Below are positions 3,222 to 42,685 of a stretch of DNA of 42,690 nucleotides, piece by piece; position 1 is the first letter of the stretch; each line of letters opens with the position of its first letter. Source of the stretch: Thermoplasmata archaeon (GTDB lineage: Archaea; Thermoplasmatota; Thermoplasmata; Lutacidiplasmatales; UBA184); contig JBARJD010000044.1 in assembly GCA_049800095.1 (NCBI GenBank), forward strand, positions 1 to 42,690. Reading direction: 5' to 3'. Position numbers and translations under genes: made by a program. Under the pieces are notes generated by a model. It was not told where the DNA came from and ran no database searches. It saw only the letters and a program-made list of their open reading frames with translations.

Positions 3222-3241
3222 GGTGCAAGATGCGTTGCACC
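3222..3241. repeat. Intergenic palindrome, perfect copy
   Basis: GGTGCAA gatgcg TTGCACC, followed by CACTT. It lies in the divergent spacer between mscL and the DHFR-like gene. Confidence 0.9.
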
Positions 3242-3394
3242 CACTTCCGGCCCAACGGCGGATCGAATCCTTATTCGTCCATCAGTGGCTTGAATACCGC
3301 CCGGAGCATCGCACAGCTCGGGCCCTCGAAGGCGGCGAGTGAAGGAATCGGGGGACCTAGAGTCCTGAACCGTTGCTCATTTTCTTAGTGCAAC

Positions 3395-3919
3395 ATGAAA
3401 GCGTCTGTCTTCATTGCCACCAGCGTCGACGGCTTCATTGCTCGGAAGGATGGGGGCATCGATTGGTTGCCGGTCGATGGCGGTGAACCCCACGGGTATG
3501 ACGAATTCATGGCCACCGTGGACGCGGTGGTAATCGGACGAAAGACATTCGAGACAGTGATGGGCTTCGATACGTGGCCCTACGAGAAGAAGCCCGTCGT
3601 AGTGCTAAGCACATCACTGCACGACGTGAAAGTCCCCGAGGGGGCGGTCTGTGAAGTCATGACCGGTTCTCCGTCGGAAATCGTCGCCCGACTTACCGAG
3701 CGGCGGGTACGGCACATCTACGTGGACGGAGGCGTCACGATCCGCCGGTTCTTGGAGGCGGGTCTGATTCAAAGCTTGACCATCACTCGGGTGCCGATCC
3801 TCCTGGGAGTAGGAATCCCGTTGTTCGGTACCATCCCGCGCGACACCCGGCTAGAGCACGTGGCCACTCGCTCGTATCCCAGCGGACTGGTCAAGAGCGA
3901 GTACAACGTTCTCCCCTGA
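3395..3919 (+). CDS. Dihydrofolate-reductase-like / RibD C-terminal domain protein
   Basis: N-terminus MKASVFIATSVDGFIARKDGGIDWL, followed by VVIGRKTF and a YVDGG motif, typical of this family. Confidence 0.8.
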   Translation: MKASVFIATSVDGFIARKDGGIDWLPVDGGEPHGYDEFMATVDAVVIGRKTFETVMGFDTWPYEKKPVVVLSTSLHDVKVPEGAVCEVMTGSPSEIVARLTERRVRHIYVDGGVTIRRFLEAGLIQSLTITRVPILLGVGIPLFGTIPRDTRLEHVATRSYPSGLVKSEYNVLP

Positions 3920-4212
3920 CTCCGGGGGAAGCACCGTGCACCCGATCCGCCACGGGCCATCGCCTTTGGCACATTGTGGAGGAGGAATTACAGCACCAAG
4001 GGGGGTTCAATGCATTGCTCTGGCAGATGGACATCGACCCTCCCCTTCGATCGGTCGAAGATTGGTACACTGCAAAGAAGGGCACTCCGTAAGGCCCACC
4101 AAACCGATGAAACCAGTTCCTCGCGATTTGCTCCCGCCTTGCGAGGAACGTGCCCCAAGACGTCAATGCTCGTGATTGAACCAATTGTTTACGTCGTTGA
4201 ACCAAAAACGGA

Positions 4213-4758
4213 GTGATTCCGTGCGCCTCATGCCCTTCGATGAGCGCGTCCCAACCCACCAAGAGCCGTCTTCCCGCGGTGTTTGCCGGCCTCCTCGTGT
4301 TGGACTTCCTCCTAGTTGTCGTGATGCTGGCGACCGACAAAAACCTGCAGACGGATTTTGGGGCCGCTCCCCCGTACTACCTGCACTGGTACGCGGGCCT
4401 CGTTCTCGGAGCCGTGACCCTCCTCCTGGCGGCCGCTGTTCTCGCCACGAACCTTCGTCAGGAACCACGGAGCGGCTCAACTGTGCTTGATCGGTACGCG
4501 TTGGTCGGTGGAGTTGTGTGGAGTTGGCTCGCCATCGCGGGGATGTTTGGGGTCTTGGCAACCTACAAGCAGGTCGGATTTTCCTCCGTGAATCAGTTTG
4601 CCCAGTACCTGTTCGGAGTCTCGGCCTATCCTGGGGCATTGTCCTACATCCCTTGGCTCTACGATCTTCTACTGGGGGTTTTCTTCGTAGCAGCGGTGAC
4701 CGGGGTCATCGCCCTCGTCCAGCGTCGGGCGGAGATTCAGAACTCTGCATCCCACTAG
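4213..4758 (+). CDS. Hypothetical integral membrane protein (4-5 TM)
   Basis: 181-aa ORF with several long hydrophobic segments. No family recognised. The start is uncertain; an alternative Met is at about 4240. Confidence 0.55.
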   Translation: MIPCASCPSMSASQPTKSRLPAVFAGLLVLDFLLVVVMLATDKNLQTDFGAAPPYYLHWYAGLVLGAVTLLLAAAVLATNLRQEPRSGSTVLDRYALVGGVVWSWLAIAGMFGVLATYKQVGFSSVNQFAQYLFGVSAYPGALSYIPWLYDLLLGVFFVAAVTGVIALVQRRAEIQNSASH

Positions 4759-4786
4759 CTCCTGACTCGTCCCGCCGAGGGGACGG

Positions 4787-4837
4787 GGTGCAACGTGACT
4801 TCCGACCACCTTCGCGAGGCGCGCCTCCCGTTGCACC
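4787..4837. repeat. Split/composite copy of the intergenic palindrome
   Basis: GGTGCAA cgtgac TTcCgACC (degenerate arm), then TTGCACC 31 nt after that arm. It lies in the convergent spacer between 4758 and 4860. Confidence 0.6.
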
Positions 4838-4859
4838 CCCTGTCACGGCCGGACAGGAG

Positions 4860-5270
4860 TTACTTTCGGCCGCCAGTCACTTTGGGATCAGACGTAAGGA
4901 CCTGGAAGAACAGCAACGAGTTGCCGTCGGGGTCCTTGATGCCAAAATAGCTGATGACATCCGGGACGGTCTTAATCTCGGCCGCGTGAACTCCGGCCGT
5001 TCTGATTCTCTCTCGCTCCCCGGAAATGTCGCGTACTTCGAACTGAAACACCCAACTTGACGGTTGGACCTTTCCCTTGACGATTTGAAGCCGAGCATCA
5101 CCAACCTTGAATTCAATATTGCCAGGAAATGGTTCCAAGTCGGGCCCATGGCCCAGAAGTCGCGAATACCGATCTCGCGACTTTTCCAGGTCACTGACCG
5201 ATATTTCTGTAATGGTTTCCCTGACAACTATCGAGATTTGTTTGCGCTGATTCGCCATGGCCCGAGTCAA
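4860..5270 (-). CDS. VOC (glyoxalase/bleomycin-resistance) family protein
   Basis: 136 aa. The pattern ...ISVSDLEKSRDRYSRLLG...FGIKDPDGNSLLFFQ fits the paired beta-alpha-beta-beta-beta VOC fold. Confidence 0.7.
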   Translation of the reverse strand: MTRAMANQRKQISIVVRETITEISVSDLEKSRDRYSRLLGHGPDLEPFPGNIEFKVGDARLQIVKGKVQPSSWVFQFEVRDISGERERIRTAGVHAAEIKTVPDVISYFGIKDPDGNSLLFFQVLTSDPKVTGGRK

Positions 5271-7800: not shown

Positions 7801-7863
7801 ACTTTGAGTAAGGCCCGGTGCAGTTACCATTCCACCCACCAGCGCCGGGCCGACGGGAGCGCG

Positions 7864-9837: not shown

Positions 9838-9859
9838 GGTGCACAATCTCCATTGCACC
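9838..9859. repeat. Intergenic palindrome, re-spaced variant
   Basis: GGTGCAc aatctcca TTGCACC, with a spacer 2 nt longer than the consensus. It lies between the GT2 stop and the cyclase-1 start. Confidence 0.6.
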
Positions 9860-28334: not shown

Positions 28335-28341
28335 GATGATG

Positions 28342-30414: not shown

Positions 30415-30433
30415 TCATGCTCTGCGACCTACT

Positions 30434-31057: not shown

Positions 31058-31211
31058 TACGGCCATTGGTCCGATTCATCACGGGAGGGTCGAACCTGCT
31101 CGGCCTCGGTCGAAGGTTAGGCCAGCCAATGCACAGCACTTAGCGACGGGGGTGACCTAAAAGAGAAGGGGTGGGCCGACCAATTCTCTCTCCATCCTGG
31201 CGCGACGTCGC

Positions 31212-32937: not shown

Positions 32938-32957
32938 GGTACCATCTCCATTGCATC
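32938..32957. repeat. Degenerate palindrome copy
   Basis: GGTaCcA tctcca TTGCAtC, followed by CACTT. Confidence 0.4.
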
Positions 32958-33018
32958 CACTTTCGCGCGGTCACCACGATGGACTGCCCTATGCGTAAGG
33001 CACCCCACCACTTTGCCC

Positions 33019-33043
33019 GATATTATACGAAACGTATAATATC
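33019..33043. promoter_or_regulatory. Perfect 11-3-11 palindrome upstream of the 33064 wHTH gene (candidate operator/TATA overlap)
   Basis: GATATTATACG aaa CGTATAATATC, 21-45 nt upstream of the ATG. Confidence 0.6.
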
Positions 33044-33063
33044 TAACAAATCCTTCATCCAGC

Positions 33064-33381
33064 ATGGATCCCCTGTTTGGTAGCGAGACCCGAGCGCTGG
33101 TGCTGGACCAGTTGGCCAGCACTCCACGGCCACAGTCCGCCTACCGGATAGCCAGGACCGTCGGAGCACAACCGATCCAAGTACTCCGAATCTTGAAGGG
33201 TTTGAGTGAGTACGCCGTGCACTCAGACATCGGTTGGGTGCTCAAAGATGAGTCTCTGAGACGCTTTCTTCGGGAGAGGTTGGCCTACCGAGAATTAGTG
33301 AGGCGGAATGAGAAGGACGAGATTCTCATTCGGTTTGGCATGAAGCCGAGCACGTCGTATGAACGGCCGCGAGTTCGATAG
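33064..33381 (+). CDS. Winged-helix DNA-binding protein (AbiEi-like), pair 2
   Basis: LFGSETRALVLDQLASTPRPQSAYRIARTVGAQPIQVLRILKGL parallels the N-terminus of 27849..28334. Confidence 0.6.
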   Translation: MDPLFGSETRALVLDQLASTPRPQSAYRIARTVGAQPIQVLRILKGLSEYAVHSDIGWVLKDESLRRFLRERLAYRELVRRNEKDEILIRFGMKPSTSYERPRVR

Positions 33382-33907
33382 CGTCCTCGCGGCAGCGTCC
33401 ACTCTCGAAGACCGCATCTCGTGGTTCGGCGCTCTTCTTGCAAGAGAGTGCAAGACCGACATCGAGATTGTCGGCGGTTCCGCCATCGAGATCTACTTGG
33501 CGTCGGCGAACTACGTTTCTCATGGTATCGACCTGGTCGGTCCCAAGGAGGTGATAAGACCCGTGCTAGGAAAATGGGGCTTCCGGGAGGTTGAGGGCCG
33601 TAGCCATCGGGGCTACTGGTTCAAGCCTGTGGTTGGGCTGGTCGACGTAGTGGGGATCGGGGATCGCTCCGGGCTTAAGCCTCGCCGGATGGAGACTCCC
33701 CACGGACCGGTGTTCGTAAGCGCCGCTGAACCTCTCATCATAAGGCGCCTGTCGCGCGCTCATCGCGAAGGATCCAAAGCCCTCTACTTGCAAGCCGTCC
33801 AGCTTGGTACGCGCGGCGGGCTGGATTGGGAGTATCTGGAGACCATGGCCAAATTCGAAGGGGTTGCTTCGCTCCTAAGAAAACTTCGAAAGGACCTCAA
33901 AGCCTGA
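33359..33907 (+). CDS. Minimal nucleotidyltransferase-fold protein, pair 2
   Basis: RISWFGALLARECKTDIEIVGGSAIEIYLASANYVSHGIDLVG is collinear with 27274..27852. The gene overlaps the wHTH gene by 23 nt. Confidence 0.6.
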   Translation: MNGREFDSVLAAASTLEDRISWFGALLARECKTDIEIVGGSAIEIYLASANYVSHGIDLVGPKEVIRPVLGKWGFREVEGRSHRGYWFKPVVGLVDVVGIGDRSGLKPRRMETPHGPVFVSAAEPLIIRRLSRAHREGSKALYLQAVQLGTRGGLDWEYLETMAKFEGVASLLRKLRKDLKA

Positions 33908-34028
33908 ACAAGTACTTCTCGAGCGGGAGTGGGTACCGGCCGGGGTCGCATACGCTTCGGGGCCAGACGAATAACGCGCTGGGTCGATGCGACTTCTGTT
34001 GCTCAGTTTCCTTTTACTCCTCAGAGTA

Positions 34029-34048
34029 GGTGCAACAAACCGTGCACC
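34029..34048. repeat. Intergenic palindrome (1 mismatch)
   Basis: GGTGCAA caaacc gTGCACC, followed by CATGAGTG. Confidence 0.8.
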
Positions 34049-34114
34049 CATGAGTGTAGCCGCGGCTCTGTCCGTCCACGATCGCCGGGTCGATGGAAGA
34101 CCTAGGAGAGCGGA

Positions 34115-34429
34115 TTAGCCACCTCTTTTTGTGTGCCTCTCGTTTCTTCGCTTGAACACGTTCTTCTCGGACTGAAGGACCGACTTCAGTCCCTCGACGT
34201 TCATCTTAAGATAAACTAGATCGGAATGGAACATCGTTACTCCTCGTTTCAGCCGCGAGGACCTTTGTGATTTCAACACGTGTTCCAGTTGTCGCGCATG
34301 CAAAAGAAGCGGTTCAACTCTAAGCTTGACCCAGTCCGTCGAGGGCTCAATTTTGGAGAACTCCCTCTTCAACTTCTCCAGAGCTTTCCTTAGTGCGGGG
34401 ACATTTGCCTTGTAGACTCTATCGACCAT
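34115..34429 (-). CDS. Hypothetical basic helical protein
   Basis: 104-aa ORF in a lower-GC patch. The composition looks protein-like, but no family was recognised. Confidence 0.4.
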   Translation of the reverse strand: MVDRVYKANVPALRKALEKLKREFSKIEPSTDWVKLRVEPLLLHARQLEHVLKSQRSSRLKRGVTMFHSDLVYLKMNVEGLKSVLQSEKNVFKRRNERHTKRGG

Positions 34430-34547
34430 CGTCTGTGTCCTACACTGTAGCCAATCCTGACGAGATTATGGCAACTCGCGCGTCCGAACCTCTCGTAGGA
34501 CCGGCATCTAACACGAGTGGGTGGGACGATGTTACGCGACGGATGGG

Positions 34548-34567
34548 GGTGCAACATCGCTTGCCCT
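34548..34567. repeat. Intergenic palindrome (2 mismatches)
   Basis: GGTGCAA catcgc TTGCcCt. Confidence 0.6.
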
Positions 34568-34659
34568 CACCCCAGCAGGTCACAGTCCTCATTGCAACCA
34601 CATCTCTCTGAAACTCACTCCCCCCTCTTTGTCGGGCCGGTACCAATAAGTACAAATGC

Positions 34660-35754
34660 GTGCCCGCCTTTCTCCCGCGTCCGGTTGTCGACATGGACCT
34701 AACGGACATTTGGCTCGCCATCGTAGCCCTCGGTGCCTCGATGATCAACGGGGCCATCGGGTACGGTTTCTCTTCCATCGTCACACCAATCGCACTGCTT
34801 TGGATTTCGAACAAGATCCTGAACCCGGCCGTCGTCACTGTCGAGCTGCTCGTCAATATTACGCTCCTATTTCGGGAGCGCTCGTTCATCCCGCTGACAA
34901 AGGGCCGGGCCATGCCGGTGGTATGGACGCTGTTTCCGGGTGTGCTCCTCGGCACTATCGGACTCACCTACCTCGCGGTCAACGATGTGAAGGTCGTCGT
35001 CTATCTCGTCCTCCTGCCGATGGTAGTCGTCCAGGTGCTCGGGCTCCGGCGGCCTTTCACCAACGAGCGACGCAGCGGGTCGGTTATCGGTCCTGGAATT
35101 GGTTTCTTGTACGCCTTGACGACGATCTCGGGCCCTCCGCTGGCCATCTTCTTCCGGAACCAGGGCCTTTCCAAGGATGAGTTCCGCTGCACTCTTGCCC
35201 AAGTCCGAGTCGCCGAGTCGAGCCTTACCCTAGCGACTTACTTCGTCTTCACCGAGTTCTTCGGGGCGTCCCTCGTCTCCGCCCCTGCGGCGGGACTCAT
35301 CCCGTTCTTGCTCATTCCCGTAATCATCGGTGTGCCAGCGGGTGCCTGGATTCTCAACCACGTTTCCCGGGACGTGTTCACTCGATTCGTTATGGCGATG
35401 GACGGGCTCGTGGTCTCCTTTGGTCTCTCGGAGGCTATTGTGAAATTGAAGTGGGTCGGGTCGACGATTAGCTACGTCCTTTTCGGTCTCCTCGCTGCAG
35501 TTGTCCTCGGGTTGTCTGCCTACTCCCTTTACCGCCTACCCGGCTCCCGAAAGTTGGTGGATTCTCGACCTACTGCTTTCTCTGGAGTGGCTAATCCTCA
35601 ATCGACCGCCGCCCCAGGCGTCCCGCCCCAAGCGACTGCTGACCCACACGCAGCGCTAGGAATCGAGGCCCCTAGGCGCGTTGTGGCTACCCCAGCAGGA
35701 GAACAGCCCCTTCCTGGGCCGGCTCTTCCCCAGATTCCATCGGACCGCGAGTAG
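34660..35754 (+). CDS. TauE/SafE (TSUP, DUF81) family anion exporter with Pro-rich C-terminal tail
   Basis: ASMINGAIGYGFSSIVTPIALLW..., about 8 TM helices. The start may be the Met at 34693. Confidence 0.8.
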   Translation: MPAFLPRPVVDMDLTDIWLAIVALGASMINGAIGYGFSSIVTPIALLWISNKILNPAVVTVELLVNITLLFRERSFIPLTKGRAMPVVWTLFPGVLLGTIGLTYLAVNDVKVVVYLVLLPMVVVQVLGLRRPFTNERRSGSVIGPGIGFLYALTTISGPPLAIFFRNQGLSKDEFRCTLAQVRVAESSLTLATYFVFTEFFGASLVSAPAAGLIPFLLIPVIIGVPAGAWILNHVSRDVFTRFVMAMDGLVVSFGLSEAIVKLKWVGSTISYVLFGLLAAVVLGLSAYSLYRLPGSRKLVDSRPTAFSGVANPQSTAAPGVPPQATADPHAALGIEAPRRVVATPAGEQPLPGPALPQIPSDRE

Positions 35755-35884
35755 GGTTGGTCCCAACGGCCTCGATCACGAGAGCAGTTTCGGCGGGGGA
35801 ACCACTGGGACTACCGCCCATCTCCTATGAGCTCAGTCAGATTCGAACCACACTTCAAGAGTTCTGGGTGGACCCAGGACTAGA

Positions 35885-35904
35885 AGTGCAAACCCCATTG
35901 CACC
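35885..35904. repeat. Intergenic palindrome (1 mismatch)
   Basis: aGTGCAA acccca TTGCACC, 48 nt past the hepT stop. Confidence 0.8.
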
Positions 35905-35951
35905 TTTCAACGAGCGCCGTGACTGAGTCAGTGGGACTTATTCTCGGAATC

Positions 35952-36296
35952 CTAAGGCAAGACAGCCCGATCGAGCAAACGACGAATTCCTGGCAGCTCA
36001 TCTCGGACGAAGGTCCAGAGGTCTTCCAGGTCAACTTCGACGTACTCGTGCACTAGACCACGGTTCCGCAATCTGCTGAGCCGTTCCCACGGAACTCGAG
36101 GGTTGAGGTTCTTGAAAGCTGGAGACGTTTTTTCGGCTGACTCTGTAAAGTGAATCAAGTCGAGAAGTACGGCCTTTTGGGCGAGTCCGCGCAGTAGAAA
36201 CATCGCCTTTCCTCCCGCAGCGTCACGTTTTGCTTCCTCAGCAGCCTCCGTCATCGCGGTCACCCGCAGCTTATCGCGCATCGATTTGCTGGTCAT
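35952..36296 (-). CDS. hepT: HepT-type HEPN toxin (DUF86)
   Basis: RNRGLVHEY matches the RX4HXY motif of DUF86 toxins. The gene overlaps mntA by 4 nt. Confidence 0.85.
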   Translation of the reverse strand: MTSKSMRDKLRVTAMTEAAEEAKRDAAGGKAMFLLRGLAQKAVLLDLIHFTESAEKTSPAFKNLNPRVPWERLSRLRNRGLVHEYVEVDLEDLWTFVRDELPGIRRLLDRAVLP

Positions 36297-36757
36297 AGTG
36301 GAACCGCCTCGGCAACGACCTGCGGCTGGATGAACCAGTGCAGACTATCTTCGGTAGCGACGTCGACGTGGCGGCCCAGCAGCGTCTCCAAGTCCTGAGC
36401 TAGGTCCAACGTCCGGAGTTTGGACTTTGCTGCCTGGGATCGATCAAAGTCAACGAGAAGATCGATGTCGCTCTTCGGCGAGGCGGCCCGCCTAGCGAGG
36501 GAACCGAAGACACGGATCTCGCGAACATGGTAGCGCTGTGCGATTCGTTCGATTCTCGTAAGGTACGGCCCTAGGACTTGCTCGATGCCAAGCCCATCCC
36601 CCCGAGCAGGGACTCGAATCCTTGGCTCGTCCCAGTACGGCGACTTGCAACGCGGGCAGATCCGGACAACCTGCCCCCGAGGAGTCCAGGAGTTACCGCA
36701 TCTGTAACAATGGAGTTCAGGAATGGCGATTTCGTGCATATTCCCGCTATCCGCCAT
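36293..36757 (-). CDS. mntA: MntA-type minimal nucleotidyltransferase antitoxin with N-terminal zinc ribbon
   Basis: CYRCGNSWTPRGQVVRICPRC zinc ribbon, followed by VFGSLARRAASPKSDIDLLVDF (the GSx10-11DxD NTase motif). Confidence 0.85.
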   Translation of the reverse strand: MADSGNMHEIAIPELHCYRCGNSWTPRGQVVRICPRCKSPYWDEPRIRVPARGDGLGIEQVLGPYLTRIERIAQRYHVREIRVFGSLARRAASPKSDIDLLVDFDRSQAAKSKLRTLDLAQDLETLLGRHVDVATEDSLHWFIQPQVVAEAVPL

Positions 36758-36856
36758 ATGTTAAAAACTTACGTATAAGTAAGTAATGTAAGGTGTCCGC
36801 ATTCGGTAAACTCCTGAGCAATGGTCCACGCATCGCCTTCCATCGCGTCGGCGAGG

Positions 36857-36877
36857 GGTGCAGTTCCCATTGCAACC
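36857..36877. repeat. Intergenic palindrome (variant arms)
   Basis: GGTGCAg ttccca TTGCAaCC. Confidence 0.7.
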
Positions 36878-36960
36878 TTCCGGGCGAGCTTCAAGATCGA
36901 ATCGCAGACAGGTGAAAAGCAACAATGGTCATTCCCCGTGCCGCTGTCGGCTAGAAATAC

Positions 36961-36966
36961 TTTAAA
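36961..36966 (+). promoter_or_regulatory. TATA-like box of TA cassette 1
   Basis: aaatacTTTAAAgggcc, 35-40 nt upstream of the ATG at 37001. It is duplicated at 37681. Confidence 0.55.
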
Positions 36967-37000
36967 GGGCCTAACCCCATAGTGTCTATGGGAGTGGGCT

Positions 37001-37213
37001 ATGGGGGCCACGAGTATCTCGGTTTCTCAAGAGACGCGCAAGCTGCTGGAGAGTCTAAAGACCGGAGGCGAAACGTATGATGACGTAATCCGCGGCCTCA
37101 TCATATCCCATCCGAACCGGCTGACGATGGCAGAGCTATCCCGGAGGATCCGGGAAGGGCACCGCCATCCAATCGAGGAACTGATATCGAAGAGCCGCCA
37201 CCAACCCTACTGA
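37001..37213 (+). CDS. Small antitoxin (PF02697-like), tandem copy 1
   Basis: MGATSISVSQETRKLLESLKTGGETYDDVIRGLI... Confidence 0.75.
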   Translation: MGATSISVSQETRKLLESLKTGGETYDDVIRGLIISHPNRLTMAELSRRIREGHRHPIEELISKSRHQPY

Positions 37214-37220
37214 GAACGCA

Positions 37221-37553
37221 GTGCCGTTCCGGATTGTCTCGATTGATGAGGCCGACGGAGAGTTTCTAAGTTTGCCGCCAGCGGTGCGTGAAGTCTTCAT
37301 CGCGGCTTTTCGGGAGCTGGCCGCATCCGATGCCCCGGTCATGCGTGGGAATGACTGGTACACCGAGGAGCTCCGCCAGAATCAGCGGATCGCCCCAGGC
37401 GGCTTGTTCTCGCTCCATGTCGGAGCACTTTGGCGGGCAGCATTCTTTCGCGACAAGGACACACTCGTCTTCATCGGGTTCGGCTACCGAGTCCCTGAGT
37501 TCTATGACAGGCTCGCGCGACTCCGAAAATCGCTGGACTCCCGCACCGAGTGA
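37221..37553 (+). CDS. RelE/ParE-superfamily-like toxin, tandem copy 1
   Basis: 110 aa with a GTG start 8 nt after the antitoxin stop. ...LFSLHVGALWRAAFFRDKDTLVFIGFGYR resembles the RelE/ParE C-terminal sheet. Confidence 0.6.
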   Translation: MPFRIVSIDEADGEFLSLPPAVREVFIAAFRELAASDAPVMRGNDWYTEELRQNQRIAPGGLFSLHVGALWRAAFFRDKDTLVFIGFGYRVPEFYDRLARLRKSLDSRTE

Positions 37554-37577
37554 CTACATCCTCCCGGTCTTTCGGAA

Positions 37578-37597
37578 GGTGCAACCCCCATTGCACC
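37578..37597. repeat. Intergenic palindrome, perfect copy
   Basis: GGTGCAA ccccca TTGCACC. The flanks extend the pairing (cggaa...tttccg). Confidence 0.9.
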
Positions 37598-37680
37598 TTT
37601 CCGCGCGCGGTAAATCTCAAAGGACAGTCGGTCCGATATGAATGAAGATCTGTCCCAACGTCGTTGTCGACTAGAGATAC

Positions 37681-37686
37681 TTTAAA
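37681..37686 (+). promoter_or_regulatory. TATA-like box of TA cassette 2
   Basis: agatacTTTAAAgggtcc. Confidence 0.55.
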
Positions 37687-37720
37687 GGGTCCAATCCAAT
37701 AGCGCCTATGGTAGAAGGCT

Positions 37721-37933
37721 ATGGGGGCCACTAGTATCTCGGTTTCTCAAGAGACGCGCAAGCTCTTGGAGAGTCTAAAAACGGGAGGCGAAACTTATGA
37801 TGACGTAATCCGGGGCCTCATCATTTCCCATCCGAACCGACTGGCGGTGGCAGAGCTATCCCGCAGGATCCGGGAAGGGCACCGTCATCCGATCGAGGAA
37901 CTGATAGCGAAGAGCCGCCGTCAACCCTACTGA
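37721..37933 (+). CDS. Small antitoxin, tandem copy 2
   Basis: 66 of 70 residues identical to copy 1. Confidence 0.75.
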   Translation: MGATSISVSQETRKLLESLKTGGETYDDVIRGLIISHPNRLAVAELSRRIREGHRHPIEELIAKSRRQPY

Positions 37934-37940
37934 GAACGCA

Positions 37941-38273
37941 GTGCCGTTCCGGATTGACTCGATTGACGATGCCGATGCGGAGTTTCTAAGTCTGCCGCCC
38001 GCGGTCCGTGAGGTCTTTATCGCAGCTTTCCGGGAGCTGGCCGCATCCAATGCCCCGGTCCTTCGTGGAAATGGGTGGCACACCGAGGAGCTTCGTCAGA
38101 ATCAGCGGATCGCCCATGGCGGTTTGTTCTCGGTGCATGTGGGAGCCCTTTGGCGGGGAGCATTCTTTCGCGACAGGGACGCACTCGTCTTCATCGGATT
38201 CGGCTTCCGGGTACCCGAGTTCTACGACAAGCTCGCGCGACTCCGAAAGTCTCTAGACGGCCGAACCCAGTGA
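37941..38273 (+). CDS. RelE/ParE-superfamily-like toxin, tandem copy 2
   Basis: 94 of 110 residues identical to copy 1. Confidence 0.6.
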   Translation: MPFRIDSIDDADAEFLSLPPAVREVFIAAFRELAASNAPVLRGNGWHTEELRQNQRIAHGGLFSVHVGALWRGAFFRDRDALVFIGFGFRVPEFYDKLARLRKSLDGRTQ

Positions 38274-38297
38274 GAATATCTTCCGTATCTCGCAGAA

Positions 38298-38347
38298 GAT
38301 GCAATCCCCCTTGCACCCGAACGGCTTCATTCAAAGCGACTTGCACC
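38298..38347. repeat. Composite element: palindrome (1 mismatch) plus an extra TTGCACC half-site 30 nt downstream
   Basis: GaTGCAA tccccc TTGCACC cgaacggcttca TTCAAAGCGAC TTGCACC. Confidence 0.75.
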
Positions 38348-38626
38348 TGCGCCGACGATCGGCGAAGGTATTGGCAAGCCAGGATTACCTAGACCGATTC
38401 CCAGCCTAGACTCTAGGGCGAGGTCAAGCTCATTCAACAAGTCCCATAATCTCGAATTATTCCGGATAAGCGCGGGCCTCGGATCGATTCGAACCTGCTG
38501 CAACGAAACACCCTTCTCTAACCTGCGAAAACATTCGTCGAGGTCACCAATCTCATCGAGCAACGTGTGAGGCCCTGCCCGAGGTCGCGTGGGCCACTCC
38601 GAATCGATCTGAGCTGTGAAGGGCAT
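38327..38626 (-). CDS. Hypothetical protein (weak call)
   Basis: 99-aa ORF starting 3 nt after the cupin stop. Its 3' end overlaps the composite repeat, and no family was recognised. Confidence 0.3.
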   Translation of the reverse strand: MPFTAQIDSEWPTRPRAGPHTLLDEIGDLDECFRRLEKGVSLQQVRIDPRPALIRNNSRLWDLLNELDLALESRLGIGLGNPGLPIPSPIVGAGASRFE

Positions 38627-38629
38627 TTC

Positions 38630-39109
38630 CTAAAGTGGATCGGACTCCGAGAGGGGCGGTCCGACCACTTTCATGAAGGCCCGCTCCGCGATGGCCCGGT
38701 AGGCCTCCGGGGCGAACCCTCCGGGCGGTTGCGTGGCCATTTCTTCGAAGAACCTCTCCATGCCCGACGGAACGAACATCTCGAGGTACCGGGCCGGAAC
38801 GCTACCGATGTTCTGGAGACAATGGGGCGTACCCCGAGCAACAAAGACAAAGGATTCCGCGGGTGCCCGAAAGATCTCTTGGTCCGCCTTGAACCGAAGT
38901 TCTCCTTCAAGGACAAACCACATCTCGTCCTCTCGGACATGGACGTGGAGCGGGGGGCCAGCCCCGGGCGGAACCCGGTGTTCGAGCAGGGTGAAGGTTC
39001 CATCAGTGGTCTCGGCACGCGCCTTGATTAGACTCGATAACCCAGATGGCCCCGGAATGACTTGACCCCCGCCCGACAGAACCAGAAACGCGCGGCTCCG
39101 CTCGACCAT
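38630..39109 (-). CDS. Cupin-domain protein
   Basis: GAGPPLHVHVREDEMWFVLEGELRF...ARGTPHCLQN are cupin motifs 1 and 2. Confidence 0.8.
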   Translation of the reverse strand: MVERSRAFLVLSGGGQVIPGPSGLSSLIKARAETTDGTFTLLEHRVPPGAGPPLHVHVREDEMWFVLEGELRFKADQEIFRAPAESFVFVARGTPHCLQNIGSVPARYLEMFVPSGMERFFEEMATQPPGGFAPEAYRAIAERAFMKVVGPPLSESDPL

Positions 39110-39312
39110 CTTTGCACCCGAAACCCCTGACCGCGCTTAGTCTACTTGAACGCGAGCCTTTGCGAGTTCCGGGTCCAACCGTTCCGCCTTCGTTCGTGGG
39201 GGAATCCAGAACCCGTCCTTATGGAACCCAAGGCCTTTCAACGTTAGATTGGCTTCAGAAGGCGGTCGAACGGTGACCCCTGGATGTGTCCGCTTCGAGC
39301 TGCCAGAGACAA

Positions 39313-39332
39313 GCGTGCAACCTCCATTGCAC
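39313..39332. repeat. Intergenic palindrome (1 mismatch)
   Basis: cGTGCAA cctcca TTGCACC. Confidence 0.8.
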
Positions 39333-39441
39333 CTAAAGTGTTCCCGGAGATTCTCAGCAGGGCGCTCGGCCCGGGGTCTGTTTCCGTTCGTCCTCCCTCG
39401 CTTTAGAAATTCTTAAGTCCAATTGTCCCAATTGGTAACCG

Positions 39442-39660
39442 ATGCTGACCGATCCCCCAACGACTATCACCATCCGGAGTTCCACCCTCCGCAGTCTCTC
39501 GCTGTACAAGGTTGGCGGAAAGTCCTACGATGAGGTCTTGAAGGGCCTGATGGAAGAGGTCCCCCCCGAGTCGTTTCTCCGGTGGGCAAAAGACGAATTG
39601 AAGCGCCCGACTCAATCTCTGGTTCAAATGAGGAAGTCCTTGGGTCTCTCTGAGCCCTGA
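39442..39660 (+). CDS. Small antitoxin (PF02697-like)
   Basis: MLTDPPTTITIRSSTLRSLSLYKVGGKSYDEVLKGLMEEVPPE... Confidence 0.75.
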   Translation: MLTDPPTTITIRSSTLRSLSLYKVGGKSYDEVLKGLMEEVPPESFLRWAKDELKRPTQSLVQMRKSLGLSEP

Positions 39661-39929
39661 TGCCCAGGGTACGTTTCTCGCCCGAGGGCGGGCACTCCCT
39701 CCGCAAACTACCGCAATTGTACCTTGAGAAGTTCAACACGGCCTTTTCTATCATTGAGGCGGGCGGTCCAGGAGCTGCCCAAGTCGACACCCATCCTCTC
39801 TCGGGCAGTCAGCAGCTGTGGACCCTCCGCATCGGACCATACCGGGGCGTATTTCGATGGGACGGCGATGAGGCGCGATTCATCCGGTTCGGCCACCGAC
39901 GTTCGGTTTACCAACGCCTCCCCAAGTGA
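39660..39929 (+). CDS. RelE/ParE-family toxin
   Basis: TGATG overlap with the antitoxin gene. ...QLWTLRIGPYRGVFRWDGDEARFIRFGHR. Confidence 0.8.
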   Translation: MPRVRFSPEGGHSLRKLPQLYLEKFNTAFSIIEAGGPGAAQVDTHPLSGSQQLWTLRIGPYRGVFRWDGDEARFIRFGHRRSVYQRLPK

Positions 39930-39968
39930 CGAATCCCGAGGCGGTAGTGCGAAACAGACAGGGGACAG

Positions 39969-39988
39969 GGCGCAATTTCCATTGCACC
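39969..39988. repeat. Intergenic palindrome (1 mismatch)
   Basis: GGcGCAA tttcca TTGCACC. Confidence 0.8.
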
Positions 39989-40065
39989 CCTGGCCCCTCG
40001 ATGCCGAGGCTGAACTAGACCCGGCAAAGACCATCTCGCCCGCCGACATACCATAAAACCAAGAG

Positions 40066-40812
40066 ATGGGAGAATACCTCGATGCAAACGGCCTGAGGAC
40101 CTATTTTGAGCGGCGTGGGTCCGGCGACCCCGTTCTGTTGCTCCACGGAGGGGGAGGGACCGCTGAATCACTTACAGCGCTTGCAGACATTCTCGCCGAA
40201 CACTACGAAGTACTGATTCCTGAGAGAAGATGGCACGCTAGGACGGCTTGTGTCGGAAAGGAACTGACCTACGAGGTCATGGCCGAAGACACGATCGCCT
40301 TCATGGACCGACTCGGAGTTACAGATGCGCACCTGATTGGCCAAAGCGATGGGGCCAACGTTGCCCTGCTTACTGCAGTTCAACGCCCAGACCACGTTCG
40401 GAAACTCGTGTTAATGGGTGGCAATTTCAACACGGACTATTTATCGTCCGAATCGAGAGCCTGGCTGAAGGGACTCTCTCCTGAGATTGCACGACAGGTC
40501 TTTCCATCGGTGGTCGACCTGTACTTCAATGTCACCCCCGACGCCGAGGCGCGATTCCCTGTCCTTCTCCAGATGCTTGGAAACCTCTACGCATCTGATT
40601 GGAGGATCCCGACCATGAGTCTTGAAGGAGTTGCGACCAAGACTCTGGTAATGGCGGGGGATAGAGACTCAGTCCCGATCGCACACACCCTGGAGTTGTT
40701 CCGATCAATCCCAAATGCCCAGTTGTGCGTGGTCCCGGAAGCCGACCACGAATTTGCTCGAAAAAAGCCGGAATTGATAGGACCCATCATTGTACGCTTC
40801 CTTGGGTCGTAG
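40066..40812 (+). CDS. Alpha/beta hydrolase
   Basis: VLLLHGGGG..., nucleophile elbow IGQSDGA, and C-terminal ...VPEADHEF. Confidence 0.88.
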   Translation: MGEYLDANGLRTYFERRGSGDPVLLLHGGGGTAESLTALADILAEHYEVLIPERRWHARTACVGKELTYEVMAEDTIAFMDRLGVTDAHLIGQSDGANVALLTAVQRPDHVRKLVLMGGNFNTDYLSSESRAWLKGLSPEIARQVFPSVVDLYFNVTPDAEARFPVLLQMLGNLYASDWRIPTMSLEGVATKTLVMAGDRDSVPIAHTLELFRSIPNAQLCVVPEADHEFARKKPELIGPIIVRFLGS

Positions 40813-40862
40813 CTAACGCTCCATTCTGCCGTGTGGTTGAAATTCAGGCATGAGTGCAATCC

Positions 40863-40883
40863 CCATTGCAACCAGACTACTCC
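40863..40883. repeat. Intergenic palindrome (variant arms)
   Basis: aGTGCAA tcccca TTGCAaCC, preceded by CATG. Confidence 0.7.
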
Positions 40884-40980
40884 CAGAGACGCCCGACGCG
40901 ACGTTCGTTCCCGGGTCAAGTGCGGCCCACCCTCCGTTCTCACAGAAACTGTCAAGTCCAACTGCTCCAATAGGACTGTA

Positions 40981-41199
40981 ATGTTGGCCGATCCTCCGAC
41001 GACTATCACCATCCGGAGTTCGACCCTCCGTAACCTCTTGTTGTACAAGATCGGCGGCAGGTCGTATGATGAGGTCCTGAGAAGCCTCATGGAGGAGGTC
41101 CCTCCCGAGTCGCTTCTTCGATGGATGAAAGAAGAGCTAAAACGTCCGACCCGATCGTTGGCGCAAGTCAGGAAATCCCTGGGTCTTCCTGAGCCCTGA
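40981..41199 (+). CDS. Small antitoxin (paralog of 39442)
   Basis: MLADPPTTITIRSSTLRNLLLYKIGGRSYDEVLRSLMEEVPPE..., taken from the internal Met of track ORF 40831..41199. Confidence 0.75.
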   Translation: MLADPPTTITIRSSTLRNLLLYKIGGRSYDEVLRSLMEEVPPESLLRWMKEELKRPTRSLAQVRKSLGLPEP

Positions 41200-41294
41200 T
41201 GCCCCGGGTCCGCTTCTCGCCAGTGGGGAGTCGGTCCCTCGGCAAGCCCAGGTGCAGTCATGGTACTATGCCTTCGCAAGTAGCATTCTGACCC
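41199..41294 (+). pseudogene. Truncated RelE/ParE toxin remnant
   Basis: Same TGATG junction as at 39658. MPRVRFSPVGSRSLGKP... parallels MPRVRFSPEGGHSLRKLP of 39660, then diverges and stops after 31 codons. Confidence 0.55.
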
Positions 41295-41575
41295 GGTGGA
41301 AGGTGTGGCTCACGCCGCCGTCGCCGATTCTTCGTGGAAGTCCGCCCCCACCGGGATAGCGCATTCCGGAAGCCGCCGAAGACTTCCCGCCCGCAGGGGC
41401 CCTTCCTGGGGCCTCCCGAGGCGAAATCCCAGTGTAAAGCATGGAAGGTCCCAACAATCGAAAGTCCGTTGGGTAGATTTCCGCGTTCGGGGTGCGTCGC
41501 ATCCTGCAACTCTTTGGGGTGAACTGAGTCGGGTCGCAGCGGACCTTGCAAAGGGAGAGGTGGTCGCGGAGTGCT

Positions 41576-41597
41576 CATATATTCGTACATATATTCG
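41576..41597 (+). promoter_or_regulatory. Direct repeat CATATATTCG x2 in the AT-rich promoter region of the wHTH-MNT gene
   Basis: CATATATTCG ta CATATATTCG, ending 12 nt before the ATG at 41609. Confidence 0.5.
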
Positions 41598-41608
41598 ATA
41601 AATCAATC

Positions 41609-42202
41609 ATGCGCTTCCACAACGAGTTCGATGACATTCTCGGAAATCGTATCCGACTCCGACTGCTTCGCATACTAGCCCGAACGGGGGGCCAGGGTCT
41701 AACCGGACGCGAGTTGGCCCGGATGTGCGGTGCGTCCTCATCACAAACGATCGCCTCGCTCCAACGCCTGGAGGACTCTGGTCTAATCCTGCGTGACATC
41801 GCCGGCCGCGCCCACATCTGGCGGTTTGCGGATGGGCATGCTCTCGGCCCAGTCCTGACGAGTCTCTTCAGGGCGGAGGCCGAATCTCTTACCACCCTAA
41901 AGAAGGACATCGAGAGTGTAATTCGGAACTTACCTGTCCACCGAGCAGTCCTGTTCGGCTCCGTTGCCCGAGGAGACGAACGCCCTACCAGCGACGTGGA
42001 CCTCCTCGTCGTGGTCCGATCTCGCGCTGACAAAGGGAGGGTAGAGGAGGCGCTGGGCGCGGCCAGTATTGACTTCGCAACCAAGTTTGGGAACCCGCTC
42101 TCGTCCCTGGTGATCGAGGAGAGGCAGCTGCGCTCTCCCCCCAACCCATCACTGTTGACGAACATTCGCCACGACGGGGTCGAGCTGGAGACGAGTGCTT
42201 GA
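41609..42202 (+). CDS. Winged-helix - minimal nucleotidyltransferase (MNT) fusion protein
   Basis: RIRLRLLRILARTGGQGLTGRELARMCGASSSQTIASLQRLEDSGLI (wHTH), followed by LFGSVARGDERPTSDVDLLVVV (NTase motif). The start is taken at the internal Met (MRFHNEF). Confidence 0.8.
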   Translation: MRFHNEFDDILGNRIRLRLLRILARTGGQGLTGRELARMCGASSSQTIASLQRLEDSGLILRDIAGRAHIWRFADGHALGPVLTSLFRAEAESLTTLKKDIESVIRNLPVHRAVLFGSVARGDERPTSDVDLLVVVRSRADKGRVEEALGAASIDFATKFGNPLSSLVIEERQLRSPPNPSLLTNIRHDGVELETSA

Positions 42203-42621
42203 CGCCGTCTCGCATCGAGGTTCTCCCTAAAGACCGGGGGGCAGTCTATCTGCGACGAGCCGAGAATCTCCTGAAAGTGATGGAGGTCGCGGATGAGGCA
42301 GGGAACCCAGATGGGATTGTTACTAACGCGGTCCAGGCCGGGATTGCTCTAGGGGATGCCTACACGGTATCATTGGTCCGGCGGCGAAGCCGCGGTCAAG
42401 ATCACAGCGAGGTCCTGCTCTTGGTGCGTGAATGCCCATCTCCGAGCACCCCTGAAGTGAGCAGTCTTCTTCAACGCATCCTGAACCGCAGGAGCGAGCT
42501 TCTGTATGAGAGCCGAGATGTCTCGCTTCGACAGGCTCGGGAACTCGCAAACCTCGCCCGCAAGCTACATTCGGCCGTCCGGTCGGCGATCTCGTCACCT
42601 TCAACGAGCTTAGGGAAGTAA
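42199..42621 (+). CDS. HEPN-domain protein (putative cognate toxin)
   Basis: TTG start overlapping the MNT stop by 4 nt. Helical, with RSRGQDH fitting Rx4-6H. Confidence 0.65.
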   Translation: MTPSRIEVLPKDRGAVYLRRAENLLKVMEVADEAGNPDGIVTNAVQAGIALGDAYTVSLVRRRSRGQDHSEVLLLVRECPSPSTPEVSSLLQRILNRRSELLYESRDVSLRQARELANLARKLHSAVRSAISSPSTSLGK

Positions 42622-42665
42622 TCGGTAACCCAACCGGGGAGCTGCTTCCGGCCGAAGGAGCCTTG

Positions 42666-42685
42666 GGTGCAATCAACCTTGCACC
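42666..42685. repeat. Intergenic palindrome, perfect copy
   Basis: GGTGCAA tcaacc TTGCACC, followed by CACTT as in the 3222 copy. Confidence 0.9.

What the first reader, a model, noticed from the sequence alone, without database searches (positions are those of the whole stretch)
3222..42685. Massively over-represented 20-bp intergenic palindrome GGTGCAA-N6-TTGCACC, about one copy per intergenic spacer
The same inverted repeat recurs across the intergenic spacers. Perfect copies are at 3222, 19212, 31038, 37578 and 42666. One-mismatch copies are at 24715, 26915, 30395, 34029, 35885, 38298, 39313 and 39969. Two-mismatch or TTGCAACC-arm variants are at 34548, 36857 and 40863. Degenerate, re-spaced or split copies are at 4787, 9838, 16338, 23209, 27205 and 32938. 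A fully specified 14-nt pattern is expected about 42690/4^14 = 1.6e-4 times here, so five perfect copies cannot be chance. No strong copy lies inside a confidently called CDS. From 23 kb to 42.7 kb almost every spacer carries one, whether the flanking genes are tandem, convergent or divergent. Arm mismatches are never compensated in the partner arm: GtTGCAA/TTGCACC at 24715, GGcGCAA/TTGCACC at 39969, GGTGCAA/TTGCgCC at 30395. The same half-site variants also recur (G[G/T]TGCAA, GG[T/C]GCAA, [A/C]GTGCAA). This favours half-site recognition by a dimeric dsDNA-binding protein or recombinase over selection for an RNA hairpin. The spacer is asymmetric and falls into two classes. One is NNNCCA (ccccca, tccccc, cctcca, tttcca, tcccca, acccca, ttccca; inverted as tggaag/cggaag). 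The other is NNNGAC (actgac, tgcgac, cgtgac). Some copies share longer flanks: TTGCACCCACTT at 3235 and 42679, and CATGAGTG(C/G)... at 40859, 23203 and 34049. I do not recognise this consensus as any described element.
Basis: seen in the sequence. Interest (0 to 1): 0.88.

Follow-up and report, generated by a model that had tools for sequence, protein, structure and literature searches.

The report
Palindromes bounding swappable archaeal gene cassettes
A 20-base palindrome that recurs between the genes of an uncultured soil archaeon marks the edges of gene cassettes that differ between related genomes. It is most likely the docking-and-cutting site of a Xer-like recombinase, which would make this an integron-like gene-shuffling system not described in this form before.

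Summary
There are 5 perfect copies and 18 copies with at most 2 mismatches of GGTGCAA-N6-TTGCACC, against 0.09 expected. A matrix trained on other genomes finds 21 sites against 0.15 expected, all intergenic. The window is chromosome from an uncultured Thermoplasmata archaeon.

The same site recurs in relatives: 111 sites in 620 kb of metagenome loci, against 2 in shuffles. The sites are clustered in regions full of toxin-antitoxin, acetyltransferase, hydrolase and defence genes, and are absent between core genes.

- Arms change without compensation (208 one-arm changes, 15 compensated).
- No T-tract follows the sites, and there is no longer stem.
- Related genomes differ by whole cassettes inserted or replaced at the sites, and homology breaks inside the 20-mer.
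- Neighbouring sites share 6-nt spacers in the same orientation, whatever the gene strand, yet no two sites in one array have an identical spacer.

The best reading is core sites for a tyrosine recombinase (two arms plus a 6-bp crossover region) bounding mobile cassettes. The Xer-like integrase at 23635-24657 is the candidate enzyme. The system works like an integron or pdif modules but fails the membership tests for both. Catalysis and genome-wide distribution remain untested.

The parts
3222..3241 (.). site, perfect (GGTGCAA gatgcg TTGCACC), divergent spacer MscL / RibD_C
   Evidence: 29.6 bits. An identical 20-mer in L004 has unrelated flanks.
4787..4806 (.). degenerate site, 28 bp after the stop of 4213-4758
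   Evidence: (13.5 bits)
7817..7836 (.). degenerate site, 27 bp after the stop of cyclase-TPR gene 7864-9798(-)
   Evidence: (12.8 bits)
9840..9859 (.). degenerate site between cyclase-TPR and the GT2 gene
   Evidence: (11.9 bits)
16340..16359 (.). borderline relic site (GACACAA tctccg TTGCAAC)
   Evidence: 9.8 bits. Below my thresholds, so weak.
18332..18351 (.). site (GGTGCAT cgacta ATGCACC), convergent spacer aldo-keto reductase / carbonic anhydrase
   Evidence: (21.6 bits)
19212..19231 (.). site, perfect, 29 bp after the stop of RibD_C 19261-19743(-)
   Evidence: The same spacer ACTGAC occurs in L004 with unrelated flanks.
23485..23504 (.). decayed site about 130 bp upstream of the integrase ATG, positionally orthologous to the good site L131:1167
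   Evidence: alignment; PWM score negative. Inferred from orthology only.
23635..24657 (+). Xer-like tyrosine recombinase, the candidate enzyme. The catalytic residues R, K, H-x-x-R, H and Y are conserved.
   Evidence: Pfam PF00589. NCBIfam XerA model at 82 bits, below the 220 cut-off, and the integron-integrase model matched only in part. Invariant residues. Closest solved sequences and folds are XerA, XerH and XerD.
24715..24734 (.). site 57 bp after the integrase stop. A site is also present 78 and 120 bp after the stop in L004 and L007, with unalignable flanks.
26915..26934 (.). site 56 bp after the stop of cyclase-TPR 24936-26858
27206..27225 (.). degenerate site 48 bp after the stop of 27274-27747(-)
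   Evidence: (15.5 bits)
30395..30414 (.). site, convergent spacer
31038..31057 (.). site, perfect. An identical or near-identical 20-mer in L004 and L131 has unrelated flanks.
32938..32957 (.). degenerate site, divergent spacer
   Evidence: 12.4 bits
34029..34048 (.). site bounding the 104-aa-gene cassette. Homology to L010 starts inside this site.
34548..34598 (.). tandem pair of degenerate sites (34548 and 34579). L182 carries an extra 0.94-kb cassette at this position.
35885..35904 (.). site, first of seven consecutive sites whose spacers are pyrimidine-rich on the + strand (acccca, ttccca, ccccca, tccccc, cctcca, tttcca, tcccca)
36857..36876 (.). site, divergent spacer HepT-MNT / TA pair
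37578..37597 (.). site, perfect, between the two paralogous TA cassettes
38298..38317 (.). site, convergent spacer, 24 bp and 9 bp from the two stop codons
39314..39333 (.). site, divergent spacer cupin / ParE pair
39969..39988 (.). site 39 bp after the ParE-like stop
40853..40872 (.). site 41 bp after the alpha/beta-hydrolase stop
42666..42685 (.). site, perfect, 45 bp after the stop of 42199-42621
24715..42685 (.). Cassette array of about 16 units of 0.5-3 kb. Contents include HepT/MNT, ParE, a VapB-like pair (two copies), cupin, hydrolase, TauE and wHTH genes. Genes lie on both strands and each unit has its own promoter region.

Best explanation
The palindrome is the core recombination site of a chromosomal gene-cassette system in soil Thermoplasmata. 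Two inverted 7-9-bp arms (tR-GGTGCAA / TTGCACC-Ya) would each bind one monomer of a tyrosine recombinase. The 6-bp spacer would be the crossover (overlap) region, cut at its two ends as in dif sites.

Cassettes of one to a few genes, each with its own promoter and in either orientation, sit between consecutive sites. They are inserted, lost or replaced by recombination within the sites. The spacer gives each site a direction and a specificity. An insertion leaves two sites with the same spacer, and a cassette becomes stable once one spacer mutates. This would explain why neighbouring spacers are alike but never identical.

The Xer-like integrase at 23635-24657 lies inside the array and is itself flanked by sites. 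It is the most likely catalyst.

Shown here: over-representation of the site, intergenic clustering, uncompensated arms, directional and locally similar spacers, and cassette polymorphisms that break inside the sites.

Inferred: protein binding, cleavage positions, the need for spacer identity, and the identity of the enzyme.
For: 1. The geometry is that of a simple tyrosine-recombinase site. The spacer is 6 nt, the arms are symmetric, and palindromy ends 2 nt outside the 20-mer. dif sites are inverted arms with a 6-nt spacer cut at its ends (PMC8371274).

2. Arms are conserved by sequence, not by pairing: 208 one-arm changes against 15 compensated.

3. Cassette polymorphisms between relatives.
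- L188 and L204 are 85-94% identical on both sides, but about 1.1 kb between two conserved sites is replaced. At the right-hand site homology resumes within 3 bp of the site. At the left-hand site it ends at the spacer/right-arm boundary of a 20-mer that is degenerate in L188.
- L175 and L199: 3.9 kb carrying three further sites is inserted at one site. Homology ends after the left arm plus 2 spacer nt.
- L184 and L161: a 5.4-kb array sits at a single site next to the integrase.
- At window 34548, L182 has an extra 0.94-kb cassette flanked by two sites.
- The window cassette 34029-34548 recurs, inverted, in an unrelated context in L010. Homology starts inside the site.

4. Of 30 homologous non-integrase cassette pairs between loci, 24 have no homologous neighbour.

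5. Of 32 site pairs with identical spacers in different loci, 27 have no homology in either 600-bp flank.

6. Adjacent sites share spacers in the same orientation: 2.91/6 against 1.48/6 reversed over 104 pairs in 31 non-window loci. 41 pairs against 5 reach >=4/6, and no orientation shuffle out of 5000 reaches the observed value. This holds although genes lie on both strands.

7. Among 519 within-array pairs, 33 are 5/6 identical and none is 6/6. About 6-7 would be expected.

8. Contents are typical flexible genes: PIN, MNT/HEPN, GNAT, hydrolases, glyoxalases and RM systems. There are 103 Pfam families in 90 proteins. The median distance between sites is 1.26 kb.

9. The only recombinase in the window is Xer-like. 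Its family is common in Thermoplasmata contigs and absent from 2.9 million viral contigs.

10. Sites are clustered, not universal. None lies between window 9.9 and 18.3 kb, and L159 has 1 site in 18 kb.
Against: - No binding or catalysis has been shown.
- Integrase homologues in loci with >=67% G+C have no sites nearby and no alternative palindrome.
- Two Thermoplasmata loci with 3-4 sites have no integrase within 5-7 kb. The integrase-site link is therefore only circumstantial.
- Because my loci were selected through the integrase, I could not test association.
- On the promoter side, cassette homology often fades 60-100 bp before the next site.
- Two cassettes are inverted between genomes while the flanking spacers keep their orientation. 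A simple polar integration model does not predict this.
- Convergent spacers are the most often occupied: 22/28, against 13/29 divergent. A bidirectional terminator or insulator would show the same pattern.
- Four assemblies break at 33886, which is 143 bp from a site and not in it.
Confidence: 0.6

Rival explanations
1. The site binds an abundant dimeric DNA-binding protein, such as a winged-helix regulator or a nucleoid/roadblock protein. This protein insulates neighbouring transcription units or stops RNA polymerase in both directions. Cassette breakpoints fall there only because the sites lie at gene ends.
For: - The arms are symmetric and sequence-conserved.
- Occupancy is highest in convergent spacers, 22/28.
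- Sites lie close to stop codons (median 67 bp) and never within 52 bp of a start codon.
- Several wHTH genes lie in the arrays.
- A similar palindrome with iteron-like half sites occurs in an unrelated viral contig.
Against: - It does not explain why spacers are directional, similar between neighbours and never identical within an array.
- It does not explain why homology breaks inside the 20-mer.
- It does not explain why identical sites sit between unrelated flanks in different genomes.
- It does not explain why core genes with long spacers lack the site.
Confidence: 0.15
2. The element is REP-like. A short palindromic repeat is spread by a dedicated transposase and acts as an RNA or DNA hairpin, stabilising mRNA 3' ends or terminating transcription. 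Recombination between copies is a by-product.
For: - The element is extragenic, high in copy number and often just after stop codons.
- A 7-bp stem with a 6-nt loop is possible.
- There is a slight excess of compensated double changes, 15 against 8 uncompensated.
Against: - 208 one-arm changes are left uncompensated.
- No T-tract follows the sites, and there is no Rfam family match.
- 13 sites lie in divergent spacers.
- No IS200/RAYT-type gene is found among the window ORFs scanned.
- The arm sequence is conserved across integrase clades that are only about 50% identical, unlike species-specific REPs. The REP property is from my own knowledge.
- Spacer (loop) orientation follows the array, not the gene strand.
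Confidence: 0.1
3. The palindrome is a preferred target for insertion of foreign DNA by some other mechanism that duplicates the target, or it is a hot spot for microhomology-mediated rearrangement. It would not be a recombinase core site.
For: - Adjacent sites have similar spacers in the same orientation, as target duplications would.
- Cassette orientation is independent of spacer orientation.
- Tandem sites 28-61 bp apart occur.
Against: - Cassettes have no transposase and no terminal repeats.
- A 20-bp target duplication would be unusually long (own knowledge).
- In L175/L199 and L188/L204 the similarity break falls within or next to the spacer, rather than outside a duplicated whole site.
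- Freshly duplicated targets should sometimes be identical, yet none of 519 pairs is.
Confidence: 0.1

Closest known systems
Integrons (IntI plus attC cassette arrays, including sedentary chromosomal integrons and the archaeal integrons of Ghaly et al. 2022, PMC9668308)
   Same: - Arrays of short cassettes (median about 1.3 kb), each bounded by a repeated recombination site.
- Contents rich in toxin-antitoxin, acetyltransferase and glyoxalase-type genes and unknowns.
- Cassette content differs between relatives while the sites stay.
- A Xer-related tyrosine recombinase lies in or next to the array.
- Sites sit close behind stop codons.
   Different: - The site is a 20-24-bp double-strand-type palindrome, not a 55-140-nt folded single strand with R/L boxes.
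- The arms do not match RYYYAAC/GTTRRRY.
- The recombinase lacks the IntI-specific domain.
- Cassettes have their own promoters and lie in both orientations.
- The integrase is flanked by sites on both sides.
- The archaeal integron survey used canonical attC models and does not mention Thermoplasmata.
pdif modules of Acinetobacter plasmids (XerC/XerD sites flanking resistance and TA modules; PMC9947245, PMC6160057, PMC12907356)
   Same: - Many copies of a dif-like site (inverted arms, 6-bp spacer) flank discrete gene modules.
- The modules are found in different contexts and orientations.
- The spacers vary between copies.
- A Xer-type enzyme is implicated.
   Different: - pdif sites have two different arms (XerC and XerD), and neighbouring sites are inversely oriented.
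- Here the arms are symmetric and neighbours are in the same orientation.
- The host is an archaeal chromosome, not a bacterial plasmid.
- The arms are 7-9 bp, not 11 bp.
Xer/dif chromosome-dimer resolution (archaeal XerA; PMC2958812, PMC8371274)
   Same: - The recombinase has a two-domain Xer-like fold, and T. acidophilum XerA is the best structural match.
- The site has inverted arms and a 6-nt spacer.
   Different: - dif is single-copy. Here there are >=21 sites in 42.7 kb.
- The integrase scores 82 bits against the XerA equivalog cut-off of 220.
Heterospecific lox/FRT sites used for recombinase-mediated cassette exchange (engineered; own knowledge)
   Same: Symmetric arms are combined with spacers that differ by one or two bases. 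Sites then recombine only with an identical partner, which keeps tandem sites stable and allows slot-specific exchange. Here neighbouring spacers are similar but never identical, and the same site variants recur in other genomes with different cassettes on both sides.
   Different: This system is natural, archaeal and untested. The need for spacer identity is inferred only from the absence of identical spacers in cis.
REP/BIME extragenic palindromes of bacteria
   Same: Short, high-copy, extragenic palindromes, often after stop codons.
   Different: - Mismatches are uncompensated.
- No RAYT gene was seen.
- Spacer direction is conserved independently of transcription.
- Breakpoints of cassette polymorphisms fall inside the site.

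Membership tests
Integron | IntI-type integrase with the IntI-specific additional domain | tested here: not met
   TIGR02249 matches only residues 161-240, at 28 bits against a cut-off of 265. PRK15417 scores 17 bits against 435. The best sequence and fold matches are XerA, XerH and XerD, while IntI4 matches only in part.
Integron | attC sites: 55-140-nt imperfect palindromes with R''/L''-L'/R' boxes (RYYYAAC...GTTRRRY), recombined as folded single strands | tested here: not met
   Complementarity falls to background 3 nt outside the 20-mer, and the spacer is not self-complementary. The arms GGTGCAA/TTGCACC do not fit the box consensus, as the sequence shows directly.
Integron | Array of cassettes each bounded by the repeated site, variable between relatives | tested here: met
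Integron | Promoterless, co-oriented cassettes expressed from a common Pc promoter | tested here: not met
   Genes lie on both strands within one run of sites. Sites are never closer than 52 bp to a start codon. A TATA-like element is conserved in the duplicated cassette.
Xer/dif | Inverted recombinase-binding arms separated by a 6-bp spacer | tested here: met
   The spacer is 6 nt in all copies found. The conserved arms are 7-9 bp rather than 11 bp.
Xer/dif | Single site per chromosome | tested here: not met
   21 sites at >=12 bits in 42.7 kb.
Xer/dif | Recombinase is the XerA orthologue | tested here: not met
   NF040815 scores 81.9 bits against a cut-off of 220. The fold is Xer-like.
pdif modules | Modules flanked by inversely oriented sites with distinct XerC and XerD arms | tested here: not met
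   Both arms share the same consensus. Adjacent spacers match in the same orientation, not the reverse.
pdif modules | Discrete modules found in different contexts | tested here: met
   24 of 30 homologous cassette pairs have no homologous neighbours.
REP / RAYT | Associated RAYT (IS200-like Y1) transposase | tested here: inconclusive
   None was found among the window ORFs scanned. The rest of the genome was not available.
Terminator (intrinsic or archaeal oligo-T) | T-tract at or after the hairpin, and position only downstream of genes | tested here: not met
   1 of 163 sites has T5/A5 within 30 bp. Terminator-like hits are fewer than in shuffles. 13 sites lie in divergent spacers.
Transcription-factor operator regulon | Fixed position relative to promoters or start codons | tested here: not met
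   Distance to the start codon ranges from 52 to 994 bp. 26 of 58 classified sites lie in convergent spacers.
MITE / IS end | Longer conserved element with terminal repeats around the motif | tested here: not met
   Flanks are unconserved.

The most novel reading that the evidence does not exclude
These Thermoplasmata carry a third kind of natural gene-cassette platform, besides integrons and pdif modules. It would be a chromosomal scaffold of short double-strand recombination sites whose 6-bp spacers are all different within an array. Cassettes would then be locked against deletion, yet each slot could exchange its content with DNA carrying the matching spacers. That would be a natural counterpart of heterospecific-site cassette exchange, run by a dedicated Xer-derived recombinase.
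Probability: 0.3. Interest if true: 0.9.

Novelty: new variant of a known kind. Interest (0 to 1): 0.8.

Why it matters
If the reading is right, it would have several consequences.
- Cassette-based genome plasticity driven by a simple tyrosine recombinase would have arisen independently of integrons, in abundant soil and peat archaea.
- It would use a minimal 20-bp double-strand site that canonical attC searches cannot see.
- It would explain how these uncultured archaea shuffle toxin-antitoxin, defence and small metabolic genes.
- It would give a simple sequence marker for finding their flexible genome in metagenomes.
- It would offer a compact recombinase/site pair, with a natural series of mutually exclusive spacers, for genome engineering.
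- The spacer rule (similar but never identical in cis) is a concrete, testable prediction about how arrays stay stable.

Tried and rejected
- Phage origin. There is no megablast match of 23-42.7 kb to 50,697 phage records. The window has no tRNAs. The gene content is chromosomal and archaeal.
- Canonical integron. This is rejected on the integrase domain and on site length.
- Whole-collection scans with the 14-base pattern. Only three Thermoplasmata loci were useful, so genome-wide density could not be measured.
- A variant palindrome in integrase loci that lack the site. None was found.
- A global spacer polarity relative to the integrase. None was found: 21 loci positive and 20 negative.
- Recent mobility through exact-protein look-ups. 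Look-ups for window cassettes returned only the same arrangement in fragmented contigs, or nothing on record.
- Literature searches for the motif or for such arrays in Thermoplasmata found nothing relevant.
- The two duplicated TA cassettes as proof of site-to-site duplication. This is ambiguous, because the 60 bp after the left site is barely alignable.

Full report
OBSERVATION. The pattern GGTGCAA-N6-TTGCACC occurs five times exactly (3222, 19212, 31038, 37578, 42666) and never in 100 shuffles. With up to two mismatches there are 18 copies, against 0.09 expected. Flanks beyond the 20-mer are not conserved.

Over 163 non-redundant sites from all loci, complementarity fades from 0.53 at the first outside position to background by the third. 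The spacer is not self-complementary. The unit is therefore tR-GGTGCAA-N6-TTGCACC-Ya and is not part of a longer repeat.

A half-site matrix trained only on other loci finds 21 window sites at >=12 bits (null 0.15). It does not confirm 23209, and 16340 is borderline. It adds 7817, 18332 and 34579. All hits are intergenic.

CONTEXT. The window is not a phage. It encodes ordinary and accessory chromosomal genes:
- CN-hydrolase, MscL, a PKD protein, a glycosyltransferase, M29 peptidases and an aldo-keto reductase;
- three adenylate-cyclase/TPR paralogues;
- one tyrosine recombinase at 23635-24657;
- downstream of it, a run of small units: HepT/MNT, a duplicated VapB-like pair, a ParE pair, cupin, hydrolase, TauE and wHTH genes.

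Homologues of the integrase are named Thermoplasmata. A GTDB Thermoplasmata MAG shares 84-85% DNA identity with the M29 gene. Public assemblies reproduce the window at about 100% identity.

THE SITE IN RELATIVES. Loci around integrase homologues of 78-83% identity (L004, L007, L008) and 54% identity (L010) carry 6-12 copies each in 14-21 kb. In 80 metagenome loci found with an integrase alignment (620 kb), 111 sites score >=14 bits, against 2 in shuffles.

Sites occur in nearly all integrase clades, but only in loci of about 57-67% G+C. Loci with higher G+C have the integrase but no site and no alternative palindrome.

Two Thermoplasmata loci found through the motif alone carry 3-4 sites after accessory genes, with no integrase within 5-7 kb. 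The integrase family is absent from 2.9 million viral contigs.

Sites are clustered. None lies between window 9.9 and 18.3 kb, although spacers there are long, and L159 has one site in 18 kb.

NOT A HAIRPIN, TERMINATOR OR OPERATOR.
- Arm changes are one-sided 208 times and compensated 15 times.
- Only 1 of 163 sites has a T5/A5 run nearby.
- Terminator-like hits are fewer than in shuffles, and no Rfam family matches.
- Sites occupy convergent (22/28), tandem (19/45) and divergent (13/29) spacers.
- They lie a median 67 bp from stop codons and never closer than 52 bp to a start codon. They have no fixed distance to either.

CASSETTES MOVE AT THE SITES. Blocks shared by the window and L004 are reordered and inverted, and their edges lie near sites. 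Five cases are clear.
- (a) L188 and L204 are 85-94% identical on both sides, but about 1.1 kb between two conserved sites is replaced. The replacement is a different cassette whose one shared gene is only 54% identical in protein. At the left site the left arm and spacer are shared and the right arm differs. At the right site similarity starts at the left arm.
- (b) L199 has 3.9 kb with three further sites where L175 has one site. The shared flank (87% identity) ends after the left arm plus two spacer bases.
- (c) L161 has a 5.4-kb array where L184 has a single site next to the integrase.
- (d) L182 has an extra 0.94-kb cassette flanked by two sites exactly where the window has the site pair 34548/34579.
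- (e) The window cassette 34029-34548 recurs inverted in L010, in an otherwise unrelated locus. Homology begins inside the site.

Three systematic counts agree:
- 24 of 30 homologous non-integrase cassette pairs have no homologous neighbour;
- 27 of 32 site pairs with identical spacers in different loci have no homology in either 600-bp flank;
- after the integrase stop codon the DNA of relatives is unalignable, yet three of five have a site there.

Inter-site distances are either 0-60 bp (tandem sites) or 0.27-10 kb, with a median of 1.26 kb. Contents are diverse accessory genes led by PIN, MNT, GNAT and hydrolases.

THE SPACER BEHAVES LIKE A CROSSOVER REGION. Adjacent sites have similar spacers in the same orientation: 2.91/6 against 1.48/6 reversed. 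41 pairs against 5 reach >=4/6, and no orientation shuffle out of 5000 reaches the observed value. In the window alone the values are 2.59 against 1.18, P=0.005. Similarity decays with separation.

The orientation follows the array, not transcription. Seven consecutive window sites (35885-40853) have spacers that are pyrimidine-rich on the + strand, while the genes between them lie on both strands. A cassette that is inverted in L131 relative to the window sits between spacers of unchanged orientation.

Among 519 within-array pairs, 77 are 4/6 identical, 33 are 5/6 and none is 6/6. A binomial extrapolation, or the between-locus ratio, predicts about 6-7, giving P of about 0.003. Between genomes, identical spacers are about 4-fold over-represented (37 against about 9.5). 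Among the window's closest relatives their order is partly conserved, although the cassettes differ.

My inference is as follows. Sites with identical spacers recombine. An insertion creates two such sites. Only cassettes whose flanking spacers have since diverged persist.

THE ENZYME. The integrase has the conserved R, K, H-x-x-R, H and Y residues. It has a two-domain model (pLDDT 73.5) with a disordered N-terminus. Its best structural matches are T. acidophilum XerA, XerD and P. abyssi XerA (sequence level). It is below the XerA and IntI family cut-offs.

Within its clade the gene is preceded, about 130 bp upstream, by a conserved site that has decayed in the window at 23485. It is also preceded by a conserved 27-nt element. 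It is followed by a site, so the gene is itself framed like a cassette.

The link between this enzyme and the sites is circumstantial. It is the only recombinase present, it has the right geometry for a simple Xer-type enzyme, and it is chromosomal. It is weakened by homologues that lack sites.

COMPARISON. Functionally this resembles integrons and pdif modules, but it fails their defining features (see the membership table). The archaeal integrons reported so far have canonical attC sites and IntI, and Thermoplasmata are not mentioned. A 2021 review of archaeal tyrosine recombinases lists no cassette system. Searches for the motif found nothing. I therefore rate it a new variant of a known kind.

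OPEN POINTS.
- Promoter-side homology often stops short of the site.
- Cassette inversion leaves the spacer orientation unchanged.
- The preference for convergent spacers leaves room for a second role as an insulator.
- Genome-wide distribution is untested.

Noticed in passing
window 23581-23610 (+) and 41276-41305 (-); also L131:1262, L004:9947, L008:2964, L007:9767: A conserved element of about 27 nt, CACCTTCCAYCGGGKCAGAATGCTAC, lies exactly 54 bp upstream of the integrase ATG in the window and three relatives. A second copy (25/27) lies on the minus strand in the site-less 410-bp spacer 41199-41609, with unrelated flanks. It may be a promoter/operator or a small RNA. Its function is unknown.
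   Followed up: partly
window 36857-37597 and 37578-38317: Two paralogous toxin-antitoxin-like cassettes (70-aa DUF7557/VapB-like plus 110 aa) stand in tandem at 91% identity. Each has a conserved TATA-like ATACTTTAAAGGG about 35 bp before the ATG. The 60 bp after the left site is barely alignable. A third copy in L131 is inverted.
   Followed up: yes
window 7864-9798(-), 21096-23084(-), 24906-26858(+): There are three paralogous adenylate/guanylate-cyclase plus TPR proteins. Homologues recur next to the integrase in L004, L008, L132 and other loci.
   Followed up: no
window 33886: Four independent public assemblies (L211, L212, L214, L215) all end at this base, 143 bp left of site 34029. It is probably an assembly-graph branch point, which would indicate strain variation. 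It does not lie in a site.
   Followed up: partly
L010 20785/20817/20854 and 19759/19802; L131 8818/8879; L150 990/1027; window 34548/34579: Sites often occur as tandem pairs or triplets 28-61 bp apart with nothing between them. They may be empty slots or remnants of excision.
   Followed up: partly
L318 (IMG/VR contig, 61% G+C) 600-800: An iteron-like cluster of TTGCACCCTTT half sites lies together with two full palindromes AAAGGGTGCAA-N6-TTGCACCCTTT. There is no homology to the window or to its integrase. The likeness may be coincidental, or it may be a binding site for a related protein.
   Followed up: partly
L188:2845-3240(-) and L204:9375-9770(-): A 131-aa protein with no Pfam match, possibly a winged-helix DNA-binding protein by eye, is present in both alternative cassettes next to the integrase-proximal site. 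The two copies are 54% identical and lie at different positions in the cassette.
   Followed up: no
L010 11541-17449: A 6-kb multi-gene defence block (DUF6996/6997, a D12 methyltransferase, AIPR, DUF5343, HEPN_Swt1) lies between two sites with none inside. Cassettes can therefore be whole defence systems.
   Followed up: no
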